Source: Escherichia coli (GTDB taxonomy: Bacteria > Pseudomonadota > Gammaproteobacteria > Enterobacterales > Enterobacteriaceae). From it: a stretch of 64,000 nt of DNA. The position numbers are program-made. The stretch lies in the NCBI RefSeq assembly GCF_003991155.1, contig NZ_CP031293.1. One strand, written 5' to 3'. Positions 30,001-33,000 of the stretch are shown here, in pieces. Position 1 is the stretch's first letter, and each line of letters opens with the position of its first letter.

Positions 30001-33000
30001 GAATACCGCCTCCGTTTTTTCGCGAATATTCTGTGCCTGTGCAGGAGAAGGCTGAATACCGGCCATATCCCATTCATGGCAGGGCTCCGTTTTGTCGGCC
30101 TGCGTCACCACAAACAGTACCCGCTGATGTCCCCGGTGCAGGATGTGTCGCCAGAAATACTCATCCACAGACAGGGCACGGTCATCGGCTTTAATCAGCC
30201 ACAGTACCAGGTCCAGTTCAGGCAGAATGTCACGGTACAGGGCCTCATACTCTGCATCCCTGTCCCGGCTCTCGCCCACCCCGGGCAGGTCAGTGATAAC
30301 CATGCTGTGACCGTGGCCACTCAGACGGAAGTGCCGTACTTCCCGGGTGCCGGCGTGAACATCACTGACCGGGGTGACCTCCCCCTGAAACAGTGCATTA
30401 CAGAGTGAGGATTTACCGGCCCCGCTTTTACCCATAATGCCAATCACGGGTTCGTGACGGGTGAGTTTGCGCAGATGTTCCAGGATGTGACGGGAAAGCG
30501 AGTAAGGCAGGGAGGAGAGCGGTTTTTCAATTGCCTCAATGGCATCAGACGGATTCATACATGTATTCCCGGTGAAAAAAGACAAAACCCCGCGCACCGG
30601 AAAGGTGGCGGGGGATTCACGGAGATAATATCTGTCTGAAATTGTTTTGAATCGATGGGATTGTTGCGTATTAACATGAAGGAGATCAGGACTTATCCGT
30701 TACTGGGTGATCTCCTTCCATGAAAATACGCCGTTATTGTTAAACAGCAGGCTGATTTCTCCGTAAAGGGGAAAATATTTATCGGCTGCATGATTATCAG
30801 GTGTGTCTGTGTTTACTGCTGTGAGTATTTTTCAGTGTATTGTGGGGGAGATGTCAGTGGGAGATATTAAATTTACGTTTATAATTATCTTACTTCTTCT
30901 GTGTGTTTTTTATAAGAGTGCACACGTAATGATATCTGTTGATACCATGTGGTTAAGTGTTTCCCTTCCTGGTCATGCGTAATGATTAAATGCTTTTGTG
31001 ACACCATTCTTCCGGTCTGAATATTTATCCCGTTCTTTTTTATTTGTGCAGTGATACTGTCGGAAGAGAATTCAGTAATGTGAGGTGTCCTGGTCAGGAT
31101 AATATCTGCTGAGATATTATTAGTTGAGTATGTTTTTACTGAGCAAAAGCTGGCTTTTAATTCCTGTACTGAAACGCTGTCGCTCGTCCGGGGTTAACTG
31201 AAACTGGATGATGATGTAAAATGAAGGCTGTTTTTGTGTTTGTCGAAGAAGTGTTATTTTAATCCATTCTCATCATTGGCTGGCGATTATACAGAAGTAT
31301 TTGAAGAAAAAATGGTGCATTTTATCTGCGTCAGCAGGGAGGAAGTATTTTATTGATGTATCAGTATTAAATGGTTTTTGTTATTTATAAATATGTCATC
31401 CTGTCCATAGAATATTGTACTCAGCATTCAGTGCAGGAACTGTAGTCTTCTTTATTTTATTCTTCTTCAGGAGGGGGTGATTCCTGAAGGCGTTATTCCC
31501 GGTGTTCTGTTTATGATTCTTCCCGGCAGGAAACCGGTATCTGCAATACCCGGGATGATGCTTTTTGTTCGTACGTGGTTGTGTAAAATTTGAATAGTGG
31601 ATGTGCTCTGAAGGGAAGGAGGGGACACACAGATTCATTTTGTCTTTCTTCAGCAGCAAAACACACTGTGGTTATTATTTAACCATTAAATCAACAAAAA
31701 TTTTTACCTCATATTGATTTGACTGCTATTTTTGCTATTAATAGCCAGAATTGCAGTGCTTTTATATCTGTGTGTAGTGAGGTTACTATGTCATTCGGTC
31801 AGCCTTGTGATGAGTTTCCCCTGAGTTCGCTGCCTCCACTCATTCGTGATGCCGTTATTGAAGCTCAGCAAATTACGCAGGCTCCCCTTGGGCTTGTGGC
31901 AGCGTCTGCCCTGGGCGCTGTTTCACTTGTCTGCCAGAATCTGATTGATGTCTGCAGACTGAATACACTGCGGGGGCCGGTCTCTCTTTTTTTCCTGACG
32001 CTTGCCGAGTCCGGAGAACGAAAAACCGCAGTGGACAAATTATTAATGAAGCCCCTGTACCAGCAGGAGATGCAGTTATATTCCAGATACAAAAGTGAAC
32101 TGGCTGTCTGGAAAAACAAGGAAGAGCTTTTAAAGGCTCAGAAAAAAGCATTGTTGTCAAAACTGAATAAAGAACTCCGCAAAGGCGCGGATGAGTCAGA
32201 AACCCTCAGACAACTGGAAGTACTTCAGAAAAACAGTGCGGAAGAACCTGTGAGGTATAAATTCATTTTTAATGATGCCACGACTGCGGCAATTAAGAAT
32301 CAGCTTTGTGGTAAATGGCGTTCAGTGGGTATTATGTCAGATGAAGCCGGTATTATATTTGATGGATATACCCTGTCTGAGTTGCCTTTTATTAACAAAA
32401 TGTGGGATGGCTCTGTATTGTCTGTGGACAGAAAGAATGAACCCGAACAGATGATTGAAAATGCCAGAATGACGTTATCCCTCATGGTGCAACCCGGTCT
32501 TTTTGACCGATATATGGAGCGAAAAGGTTCTGTTGCCAGGGACAGTGGTTTTCTTGCCCGTTGTCTTATCAGTAAACCTGCAACCACGCAGGGGAAACGC
32601 TTTATTAACGGAGCTGTGATTCCGGGAGGATCATTAACGGCATTTCATGAACGATTAATGGAACTGGCCAGAGGCAGTATTGAAAAATCCAGTGAGGATG
32701 AACGGTATTGTCTGCATTTTTCGCCTGAAGCGCAAAAAATATTTATTGAGCACTATAATGTTCTGGAGCAGGATTTATCCCCTTCCGGACCCTTAAGCCC
32801 GTTTCGGGGACATGTTTCAAAAAAAACAGAAAACATTGCAAGAATTGCAGCGTTATTTCAGTATTTCAGCTATGGTGAAGGGAAAATCTCTGCCGATATC
32901 ATGACGTCTGCTGTCGTAATAAGTTCGTGGTACACAGATGAATATAAAAAATTATTTGCGTTACCTGATGAATCTGAACTGCAGCAGAAGGACGCCGAGG

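What the first reader, a model, noticed from the sequence alone, without database searches (positions are those of the whole stretch)
30598..31787. 1.2 kb ORF-free AT-rich spacer with an 11-bp inverted repeat upstream of the GTPase gene
No ORF of 60 codons or more lies between the GTPase gene and the DUF3987 gene. Near 30678-30718 a perfect 11-bp inverted repeat (gaaggagatca…tgatctccttc) with a 19-nt loop contains an SD-like aggag, which could be a regulatory hairpin or a protein-binding palindrome. The spacer could hold promoters, a small RNA or decayed genes.
Basis: seen in the sequence. Interest (0 to 1): 0.3.

Follow-up and report, generated by a model that had tools for sequence, protein, structure and literature searches.

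The report
Insertion-sequence relic in noncoding island spacer
The 11-bp inverted repeat is the fused pair of ends of a 68-bp miniature insertion-sequence derivative (ISEc12-like, IS21 family) lying in a fast-evolving, non-coding spacer of an E. coli genomic island, so the finding is ordinary rather than a conserved regulatory hairpin.

Summary
The window is an E. coli CP4-type genomic island. The 1,229-bp interval 30559-31787 separates a YeeP/YfjP-type GTPase gene (minus strand) from a divergent YfjI/DUF3987 gene. It is AT-rich (38% GC) and has no conserved ORF, no Rfam match and no detectable gene remnant. It diverges as fast as or faster than synonymous sites of the flanking genes.

The 11-bp inverted repeat is real (1 of 300 shuffles reach it). 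It is the core of a 68-bp palindrome, 30665-30732. The palindrome's two arms match the two ends of ISEc12, an IS21-family insertion sequence, at 24/25 and 21/23 bases. It is therefore a miniature (MITE-like) derivative of that element.

Copies occur in unrelated contexts. Two have perfect 5-bp target duplications, and one plasmid insertion has an exact empty site elsewhere. In orthologous spacers the element is either absent by exactly 73 bp (68+5) or carries three uncompensated stem mismatches. It is therefore not a conserved regulator of the GTPase gene.

Only the two gene-proximal ends of the spacer are conserved. One is a 95-bp GTPase leader (promoter-like block plus terminator-like hairpin). 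The other is a palindrome upstream of yfjI. Interest is low.

The parts
30559..31787 (.). Non-coding, AT-rich intergenic spacer between the divergent GTPase (yeeP/yfjP-like) and yfjI (DUF3987) genes of a CP4-type island
   Evidence: Sequence and composition. RefSeq annotation of an identical copy shows no feature in it. It is full-length in 1856 of 5426 E. coli genomes. No ORF is conserved. Substitution divergence is 12-18% against 9-13% at 4-fold sites of the flanking genes.
30665..30732 (-). 68-bp MITE-like element made of the fused left and right terminal inverted repeats of an ISEc12-like IS21-family insertion sequence; it contains the reported 11-bp repeat
   Evidence: Window 30707-30731 matches ISEc12 nt 2-26 at 24/25, and 30665-30687 matches nt 2559-2581 at 21/23, both inverted. 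The fold is -28 to -30 kcal/mol. L004/L076 lack exactly 73 bp here.
30678..30718 (.).
   Evidence: chance test.
30559..30653 (-). Conserved leader of the GTPase gene, present upstream of this gene family whatever lies further upstream
   Evidence: The first ~85-97 bp of the query match in 4177 genomes and 9131 places and on Klebsiella plasmids. Alignment A3 shows that conservation starts at ATTC[A/C]AAA.
30625..30651 (-). Promoter-like pair TTCAAA (30651-30646), 15 nt, TATTAT (30630-30625) inside the conserved leader (inferred, not shown)
   Evidence: Read. The K-12 yfjP leader has TTGAAA-15-TATCAT at the same place. The consensus scan did not call it.
30575..30614 (-). Intrinsic-terminator-like hairpin (CCCCGCCACC TTTCC GGTGCGCGGGG) followed by TTTTGTCTTTTTT, ending 17 nt before the GTPase ATG
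   Evidence: Called by the scan. Folds at -19.5 to -21 kcal/mol. One pair switches A:U to U:A in two Klebsiella copies. K-12 yfjP carries a different hairpin plus T-run at the same position.
31722..31757 (.). Imperfect 36-bp palindrome upstream of the yfjI start, with a perfect 12-bp core GCTATTAATAGC at 31733-31744; a candidate operator or promoter element
   Evidence: repeat I2. This is the strongest consensus-structure signal on both strands. The core is conserved in the K-12 alpA-yfjI gap as GCCATTAATAGC.
29686..30558 (-). GTPase family gene (YeeP/YkfA/YfjP type)
   Evidence: Pfam MMR_HSR1, E 9e-15; RefSeq 'GTPase family protein'.
31788..33272 (+). YfjI family gene (DUF3987)
   Evidence: Pfam DUF3987, E 1.3e-95; RefSeq 'YfjI family protein'.

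Best explanation
The interval is an ordinary non-coding spacer in the backbone of an E. coli CP4-type genomic island. It lies between the divergently oriented GTPase gene and yfjI.

Only its two ends are constrained. One is a 95-bp leader next to the GTPase gene, with a promoter-like block followed by a terminator-like hairpin. The other is about 150 bp next to yfjI, containing a palindromic operator-like site. The roughly 1 kb between them drifts at about the neutral rate and collects small insertions and deletions.

The reported inverted repeat is one such insertion. It is a 68-bp miniature, transposase-less derivative of an ISEc12-like IS21-family insertion sequence, consisting of the element's left and right terminal inverted repeats joined back to back. 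It was presumably mobilised in trans by an IstA/IstB transposase.

Shown: homology of both arms to the IS ends; dispersal of copies; target duplications and an exact empty site for other copies; absence or decay of the element in orthologous spacers; lack of coding or RNA-family signal.

Inferred: that the spacer carries the promoters of both genes, and that the miniature element has no role in controlling the GTPase gene.
For: Identity of the repeat:
- A full ISEc12 copy (istA/istB, 2581 bp) starts TGCGTATTTTCATGAAAGGAGATCAC... and ends ...GATCTCCTTCACGGTAATACGCA.
- The window's two arms match these ends at 24/25 and 21/23 bases, and nothing else in the 64-kb window matches ISEc12.

Dispersal of the same 62-70 bp unit, with homology ending at its edges:
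- after the stop codon of the eaaC autotransporter gene (where GenBank annotates a stem_loop);
- in the ibrAB/PerC island;
- beside cdtC on a plasmid;
- next to a methyltransferase gene;
- inside the srnB/hok leader of pKSE-C30_1.

Mobility:
- The pKSE-C30_1 copy is flanked by TCTTC on both sides. The reconstructed empty site is 100% identical over 173/173 nt in one piece in another plasmid and at least 80% covered in 2677 plasmid records.
- The L012 copy is flanked by CCTGG.

Not conserved in place: L004/L076 lack exactly 73 bp (68+5), and L002/L003 have 3 uncompensated stem mismatches.

Spacer as a whole:
- No Rfam match at E<=1.
- No conserved ORF.
- No protein remnants.
- Divergence of 12-18% against 9-13% at 4-fold sites of the flanking genes.
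- Per-100-bp identity of 35-92% in the spacer against 93-100% in the GTPase gene and mostly 90-100% in yfjI.
- Conserved ends are shown.
Against: - In the window itself the target duplication is not clean. ATTGT lies immediately left of the element, but its second copy is 3 nt beyond the right end, so insertion here rests on the 73-bp length difference.
- The window's element is only about 83-88% like the ISEc12 copy examined, and its actual parent IS was not found.
- The middle of the spacer has a strong, uniform strand asymmetry (G>C and T>A on the + strand). Neutral drift alone does not explain this, and it could reflect transcription or an unknown origin.
- A few blocks (e.g. 31480-31570) are better conserved than their surroundings.
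- No transcription or protein-binding data were available.
Confidence: 0.8

Rival explanations
1. The hairpin is a cis-regulatory RNA or DNA element for the GTPase gene, such as an RBS-sequestering stem, an attenuator or an operator.
For: It is a very stable stem (z -5 to -6), 107 bp upstream of the GTPase start, contains AGGAG and its complement, and has two GATC sites.
Against: - It is deleted in one orthologous lineage and carries 3 uncompensated mismatches in another.
- It lies outside the conserved leader, which begins at 30653.
- No start codon follows the AGGAG, and no T-run follows the stem on either strand.
- The same unit sits in unrelated loci.
Confidence: 0.05
2. The spacer is the wreck of one or more genes (former cargo of the yfjI-to-GTPase slot) decayed beyond easy recognition.
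For: - In K-12 CP4-57 and other islands the interval between yfjI and the GTPase gene holds variable cargo genes of similar low GC: abpAB and rnlAB in K-12, 39-41% GC hypothetical genes, and a SIR2 gene.
- The strand asymmetry is uniform, as in a single former transcription unit.
Against: - tblastn with 26 island and cargo proteins gives nothing better than E about 0.005, apart from an artefact caused by the MITE.
- No CDS or pseudogene is annotated under the spacer in the RefSeq records shown.
- No reading frame is shared by the diverged copies, and the best-conserved block has 3 synonymous against 10 non-synonymous changes.
Confidence: 0.1
3. The spacer is transcribed as a long leader or non-coding RNA towards yfjI, or is a silencing platform for H-NS/Hha that controls both divergent genes.
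For: - It is AT-rich (38% GC) and 1.2 kb long, and the island encodes an Hha/YmoA-family protein.
- G>C and T>A on the + strand fits the non-template strand of a + direction transcript, and would make that RNA a poor Rho substrate. This step is inference.
- The island arrangement keeps this spacer in 1856 genomes.
Against: - There are no more promoter-like sites than in shuffles (5 against 3.5).
- Outside the two ends, consensus-structure scans gave only weak signals with no compensatory changes on inspection.
- Divergence is at the neutral rate.
- Only two weak matches to the H-NS high-affinity motif were found.
Confidence: 0.2
4. The spacer encodes a small hydrophobic peptide (type I toxin-like or small membrane protein) at about 30851-30982 (+).
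For: An ORF with the core GDIK(F/I)TF(I/R)(I/V)ILLLLC(V/I)F can be read in all five variants.
Against: - Start codon, C-terminal tail and length differ between variants through frameshifts.
- L002/L003 have an I-to-R change inside the hydrophobic segment.
- Synonymous and non-synonymous changes are about equal.
- There is no usable ribosome-binding spacing.
Confidence: 0.05
5. The spacer is a replication or transfer origin served by the DUF3987 protein.
For: It is an AT-rich region next to a putative replication-type NTPase gene, and TATCTG occurs 6 times on one strand.
Against: - The TATCTG copies are about 170-300 bp apart, not clustered like iterons, and several are not conserved.
- A 6-mer count of six is reached in 37% of shuffles.
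- There are no tandem or long inverted repeats.
Confidence: 0.03

Closest known systems
ISEc12 (IS21 family insertion sequence: istA transposase plus istB helper ATPase)
   Same: The two arms of the palindrome match the element's two terminal inverted repeats (24/25 and 21/23 bases). The termini are TG...CA. Other copies carry 5-bp target duplications, within the range expected for the family (the range is from general knowledge of IS21-family elements).
   Different: It is 68 bp instead of 2581 bp and has no istA or istB. Identity to the examined ISEc12 copy is only about 83-88% overall, so the parent may be a relative. The first base of the left end is G rather than T in the window.
Bacterial MITEs (miniature inverted-repeat transposable elements)
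   Same: It is small and non-autonomous, made of IS ends, folds into a hairpin, is dispersed in intergenic DNA, and has target duplications with filled and empty alleles.
   Different: Copy number is very low (at most 6 places per genome matched the 86-nt query that contains it). It was seen only in E. coli accessory DNA, plasmids and prophages. Active transposition has not been demonstrated.
REP/BIME and ERIC intergenic palindromes of E. coli
   Same: It is an extragenic palindrome often found just after stop codons (eaaC, cdtC), where it could act as an mRNA 3' hairpin.
   Different: I recall no sequence similarity to REP or ERIC consensus sequences (not tested against a library). It is absent from the core genome, and its origin is from IS ends.
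K-12 CP4-57 prophage region alpA-yfjI ... yfjP
   Same: It has the same gene families (YfjI/DUF3987 and the YfjP GTPase), the same palindromic core upstream of yfjI, and the same promoter-like block plus hairpin and T-run upstream of the GTPase gene.
   Different: In K-12 yfjI and yfjP are co-oriented and separated by cargo genes (yfjJ, abpAB, yfjM, rnlAB), and alpA precedes yfjI by 128 bp. Here yfjI is divergent from the GTPase gene and only non-coding DNA lies between them.

Membership tests
MITE derived from an IS21-family element (ISEc12-like) | Terminal inverted repeats homologous to the ends of an autonomous IS | tested here: met
   Window 30707-30731 matches ISEc12 nt 2-26 at 96%, and 30665-30687 matches nt 2559-2581 at 91%. 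The IS ends were read from a full copy.
MITE derived from an IS21-family element (ISEc12-like) | Small size with no transposase gene | tested here: met
   The element is 68 bp, and no other ISEc12 DNA is present in the window.
MITE derived from an IS21-family element (ISEc12-like) | Target-site duplication flanking the element | tested here: inconclusive
   In the window, ATTGT lies on the left and GTT+ATTGT on the right, which is not a clean duplication, although the empty allele is shorter by exactly 68+5 bp. The feature is met in other copies: TCTTC in L082 and CCTGG in L012. It is absent in the eaaC and ibrAB copies.
MITE derived from an IS21-family element (ISEc12-like) | Filled and empty alleles of the same site (evidence of insertion) | tested here: met
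   For the srnB leader copy, the reconstructed empty site matches 173/173 nt at 100% in NZ_CP025574.1 and is at least 80% covered in 2677 plasmid records. In this spacer, L004/L076 lack the element.
MITE derived from an IS21-family element (ISEc12-like) | Several dispersed copies in unrelated contexts | tested here: met
   At least six contexts were found. 2848 of 5426 genomes have a match to the 86-nt query containing the element, with up to 6 places per genome.
MITE derived from an IS21-family element (ISEc12-like) | Mobilisation by the cognate transposase | not testable with these tools
   This needs a transposition assay with IstA/IstB supplied in trans.
Intrinsic (Rho-independent) terminator, applied to the reported inverted repeat | GC-rich stem directly followed by a T-run | tested here: not met
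   No T-run follows the stem on either strand, and the scan did not call it. The separate hairpin at 30575-30614 (-) does meet this feature.
Known non-coding RNA family (Rfam 15) | Covariance-model match | tested here: not met
   Within 29000-33000 at E<=1 the only hit is IS102/isrC at 29333-29569, which lies outside the spacer.
hok/sok-type (srnB) toxin mRNA leader | The element is an integral part of the hok-family locus | tested here: not met
   The copy beside a Hok/Gef gene is an insertion, because thousands of plasmids carry the same locus without it. No Hok-like ORF lies next to the window's copy.
Protein-coding gene or pseudogene | A reading frame conserved among diverged copies, or similarity to known proteins | tested here: not met
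   the RefSeq records shown annotate nothing under the spacer.
Iteron-type replication origin | Clustered direct repeats next to an AT-rich stretch | tested here: not met
   Only scattered short repeats were found.

The most novel reading that the evidence does not exclude
Two untested readings remain open. First, the conserved GTPase leader (promoter-like block followed immediately by an intrinsic terminator, an architecture kept with a different hairpin in K-12 yfjP) could be a transcription-attenuation switch. The terminator would be overridden by an island-encoded factor such as the AlpA-like HTH protein. Second, the strongly G/T-skewed 1-kb middle could be a long Rho-resistant leader or non-coding RNA running towards yfjI. 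Either would give CP4-type islands a dedicated expression switch for the GTPase-Ag43 module.
Probability: 0.1. Interest if true: 0.45.

Novelty: new member of a known kind. Interest (0 to 1): 0.15.

Why it matters
The finding matters little for biology and somewhat more for annotation.

- The hairpin that looked regulatory is a transposon relic.
- The same relic is unannotated in RefSeq.
- In some genomes a 'hypothetical protein' start codon has been placed inside it (L008-L010).
- In old GenBank phage records it is labelled only as a stem_loop.
- Recognising it as an ISEc12-type miniature element explains recurrent about 65-bp homologies at cassette boundaries in E. coli islands, prophage morons and IncF plasmids. 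This includes an insertion into the srnB/hok leader.
- The spacer itself marks the cargo slot between yfjI and the GTPase gene of CP4-type islands, which is empty of genes here.

Tried and rejected
- Rfam scan of 29000-33000 at E<=1: nothing in the spacer.
- Decayed-gene search with the two upstream genes of other islands and 26 island or cargo proteins: only chance-level hits. The N-terminus of a mis-called ORF matched, but that ORF is the MITE translated.
- Small ORFs: none keeps its frame in all five diverged copies at 30 codons or more. The hydrophobic mini-ORF and the 31480-31570 block fail a synonymous/non-synonymous check.
- Sliding-window consensus RNA structure on five variants, both strands, against column shuffles. 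The strongest signals are the DNA-level palindromes next to yfjI, the terminator region, and weak stems around 30680-30870. A + strand stem at 31487-31564 has no compensatory changes.
- Iterons: TATCTG occurs 6 times but is scattered and partly unconserved, and the maximum 6-mer count is not unusual.
- Exact-pattern scan of one genome per species for GAAGGAGATC-N(8-30)-GATCTCCTTC: 56 scattered hits in unrelated phyla and none titled as an Enterobacterales genome. This was uninformative beyond showing the unit is not a widespread repeat.
- IS110 or bridge-RNA association (an IS110 fragment is adjacent in L007): dropped, because the adjacency is a junction, not homology.
- attC-like and Xer-site resemblances: considered by eye, but the core motifs do not fit.
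- hok/sok leader origin: rejected by the empty-site test.
- Literature searches for yeeP/yfjI intergenic RNAs, the Eib-phage stem-loop, and ISEc12 MITEs returned nothing specific.
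Full report
**Context.** The window is E. coli DNA. The interval and its flanks are 100% identical to many RefSeq chromosomes. In strain 95-3322 the annotation reads, on the minus strand, GTPase family protein, Ag43, a large hypothetical protein, IrmA, DUF905, DUF932 and an antirestriction protein. On the plus strand a YfjI family protein diverges from the GTPase gene. Pfam confirms an MMR_HSR1 GTPase domain and DUF3987. With the RefSeq start codons, the GTPase ATG is at 30558 and the yfjI ATG at 31788, so the spacer is 30559-31787 (1,229 bp). Between the GTPase gene and Ag43 lies the known IS102/isrC RNA region (29333-29569, Rfam 74 bits). This is a CP4-type island backbone.

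**Checking the observation.**
- The inverted repeat is exactly where reported: arms at 30678-30688 and 30708-30718, a 19-nt loop, 100% complementary.
- It is unlikely by chance. Only 1 of 300 Markov shuffles of the spacer contain a perfect 11-bp repeat with a 3-40 nt loop.
- The region is AT-rich: GC 0.36-0.39 against 0.56-0.60 in the GTPase gene.
- 'No ORF of 60 codons' is not literally true. An 87-codon TTG ORF lies at 31396-31659 (-). However, no ORF of 30 codons or more keeps its frame in all five diverged copies.

**What the repeat is.**
- The palindrome extends well beyond 11 bp. The stretch 30665-30732 folds at -28 to -30 kcal/mol with z-scores of -5 to -6.
- A distant BLAST showed that this roughly 65-bp unit, and nothing around it, recurs at 79-87% identity in unrelated places:
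  - right after the stop codon of an eaaC-type autotransporter gene; in the GenBank records of phages P-EibC and P-EibA the depositors marked it as a stem_loop;
  - between genes of the ibrAB/PerC island, where RefSeq places the start of a 107-aa hypothetical protein inside it;
  - beside cdtC on IncF plasmids;
  - near a methyltransferase gene;
  - inside the leader of an srnB/hok toxin gene on plasmid pKSE-C30_1.
- The right half alone occurs among the 946 plasmid records matched by the 75-bp query.
- In pEc184_IncF that half is the outer end of an annotated IS21-like element, ISEc12. Reading the full copy gave its ends: TGCGTATTTTCATGAAAGGAGATCACTCAATAAC... on the left and ...GTTACTCACCGATCTCCTTCACGGTAATACGCA on the right, 2581 bp apart.
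- Local BLAST then matched window 30707-30731 to ISEc12 positions 2-26 (24/25) and window 30665-30687 to positions 2559-2581 (21/23), both inverted. No other part of ISEc12 is present anywhere in the 64-kb window.
- The palindrome is therefore the left and right terminal inverted repeats of an ISEc12-like element joined back to back, oriented on the minus strand. In other words it is a MITE-like miniature derivative. The 'SD-like AGGAG' belongs to the IS end.

**Evidence that the unit moves.**
- The pKSE-C30_1 copy (62 bp) is flanked on both sides by TCTTC.
- I removed the unit and one TCTTC in silico and searched with the 173-nt reconstruction. It is 100% identical in a single piece in plasmid NZ_CP025574.1, and at least 80% covered in 2677 plasmid records that annotate a Hok/Gef gene there. 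That copy is therefore an insertion with a 5-bp target duplication.
- The L012 copy is flanked by CCTGG.
- Other copies (eaaC, ibrAB) show no duplication.

**Behaviour in orthologous spacers.** The spacer occurs full-length in 1856 of 5426 complete E. coli genomes, in lineages about 99%, 85-88% and 78-80% identical to the window.
- In the 85-88% lineage (L002, L003) the stem reads GAAGGAGGGCA ... TGATATCCTTC, with three uncompensated mismatches.
- In the roughly 80% lineage (L004, L076) exactly 73 bp (68+5) are missing at this spot, as expected for an empty site.
- In the window itself the duplication is not clean: ATTGT on the left, GTT then ATTGT on the right.

**The rest of the spacer.**
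- Rfam finds nothing at E<=1.
- tblastn with the genes that occupy this position in other islands, and with 26 CP4-57 and island proteins, finds no remnants.
- No CDS or pseudogene is annotated under the spacer in any of the RefSeq records listed.
- Substitution divergence between the window and the other lineages is 12-18%. This is equal to or above the 9-13% seen at 4-fold degenerate sites of the flanking genes.
- Per-100-bp identity drops from 93-100% in the GTPase gene, and mostly 90-100% in yfjI, to 35-92% in the spacer.
- Indels are frequent. One is a 71-bp palindromic insertion in L002/L003 that shares the TGCGT.../...AATACGCA termini.
- Sliding-window consensus folding gave its strongest signals at the two ends of the spacer. 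The weaker signals elsewhere showed no compensatory changes on inspection.
- Promoter-like sites are no more frequent than in shuffles.

**The two conserved ends.**
- *GTPase side.* The 95 bp next to the GTPase start (30559-30653) are nearly invariant wherever this gene family occurs: in 4177 genomes and 9131 places, and on Klebsiella plasmids, whatever lies upstream.
  - On the minus strand this block reads TTCAAA-15 nt-TATTAT, then a GC-rich hairpin and TTTTGTCTTTTTT ending 17 nt before the ATG.
  - One stem pair switches A:U to U:A in two Klebsiella copies.
  - K-12 yfjP has the same promoter-like block followed by a different hairpin and T-run.
  - In other islands a co-oriented gene stops just before this block, so the hairpin may simply be that gene's terminator. 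A promoter followed at once by a terminator could also be an attenuator.
- *yfjI side.* A 36-bp palindrome (31722-31757) has a perfect core GCTATTAATAGC. The core is conserved as GCCATTAATAGC in the K-12 alpA-yfjI gap. It is a candidate operator or promoter element.

**Placement in island architecture.** In K-12 CP4-57 the order is alpA, yfjI, yfjJ, cargo (abpAB, yfjM, rnlAB), then yfjP, all broadly co-oriented. In other islands the position upstream of the GTPase leader holds various AT-rich genes or a SIR2 gene. The interval is thus the variable cargo slot of these islands. In the window yfjI is inverted relative to the GTPase gene and the slot contains no gene.

**Unexplained.** The middle of the spacer has a strong and uniform strand asymmetry. 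On the + strand, G/C is roughly 1.1-2.5 in most 100-nt bins (two bins fall below 1) and T/A is 1.1-2.4 outside the GTPase leader. This would fit the + strand being the non-template strand of a transcript running towards yfjI, but nothing here tests it.

**Verdict.** The repeat is a miniature IS21-family (ISEc12-like) element in a non-coding, near-neutrally evolving island spacer. This is a new member of a known kind and is of low interest. The most useful by-products are an annotation fix and two candidate cis-elements at the ends of the spacer.

Noticed in passing
window 30559-30653 (- strand); L075 12640-12715 (K-12 yfjP leader): Every YeeP/YkfA/YfjP-type GTPase gene examined carries the same about 95-bp leader: a promoter-like block (TTCAAA-15-TATTAT) followed directly by an intrinsic-terminator-like hairpin and T-run, ending 17 nt before the ATG. 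K-12 yfjP keeps this architecture with a different hairpin. It could be an attenuator, or simply the terminator of upstream cargo genes.
   Followed up: partly
L082 2001-2061 (plasmid pKSE-C30_1, CP124989.1): A 62-bp ISEc12-end miniature element is inserted, with a 5-bp TCTTC duplication, into the leader of the srnB/hok-family toxin gene 27 nt upstream of its start. Thousands of IncF plasmids have the empty site. The insertion may disturb the antisense control of that toxin.
   Followed up: partly
L008, L009 3025-3348; L010 3023-3346: RefSeq annotates a 107-aa 'hypothetical protein' whose start codon and first ~17 codons lie inside a copy of the miniature IS element. The real gene, if any, may be the 43-codon C-terminal part that has its own ribosome-binding site (MGLKPGPKP...).
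   Followed up: no
L002 and L003, inserted at the position equivalent to window ~30975: A 71-bp insertion contains a perfect 28-bp palindrome (CGATCACGGTTTGG|CCAAACCGTGATCG) and the termini TGCGT.../...AATACGCA, like the IS21-type ends. It shares an internal motif (AAATGGCATCTGAATCGATCAC) with a solo IS end downstream of Ag43/cah in L014/L015. It may be a second miniature element; its parent was not identified.
   Followed up: partly
window 31722-31757 (core 31733-31744); L075 3908-3930: A palindrome with perfect core GCTATTAATAGC lies about 45 nt upstream of the yfjI start. It is conserved (GCCATTAATAGC, with its own flanking inverted arms) in the K-12 alpA-yfjI intergenic region. It is a candidate operator for an island regulator such as AlpA.
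   Followed up: partly
window 29333-29569 (- strand): An Rfam IS102/isrC sRNA match (74 bits, gathering score 46) lies between the GTPase gene and Ag43. This is the known GATC-rich regulatory leader region of agn43/flu.
   Followed up: no
window 30750-31650: There is a strong, uniform strand asymmetry (G>C and T>A on the + strand; whole-spacer GC skew about +0.2 and AT skew about -0.15), shared by all diverged copies. No explanation tested here accounts for it.
   Followed up: partly
window 30851-30982 (+): A hydrophobic mini-ORF (MSVGDIKFTFIIILLLLCVFYKS...) has a core that can be read in all five spacer variants, but with different starts, tails and frameshifts. It is probably not a gene.
   Followed up: yes
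window ~33594-35000 and L001 12035-16233: Beyond yfjI the island carries, convergent with yfjI, a 200-aa hypothetical gene and a 68-aa AlpA-like HTH gene. These are followed by an Hha/YmoA-family gene, an inovirus Gp2-family (YfjJ-like) gene and two zinc-ribbon genes. Relative to K-12 CP4-57, yfjI appears inverted with respect to its usual alpA partner.
   Followed up: no
L084 270-470 (ISEc12 left end): The ISEc12 left end carries three direct 23-bp subterminal repeats of the form GTTATTnnnnGATCT, plus a further GGAGATCAC/GTGATCTCC palindrome. These are presumably multiple IstA binding sites, each containing a Dam GATC site.
   Followed up: no
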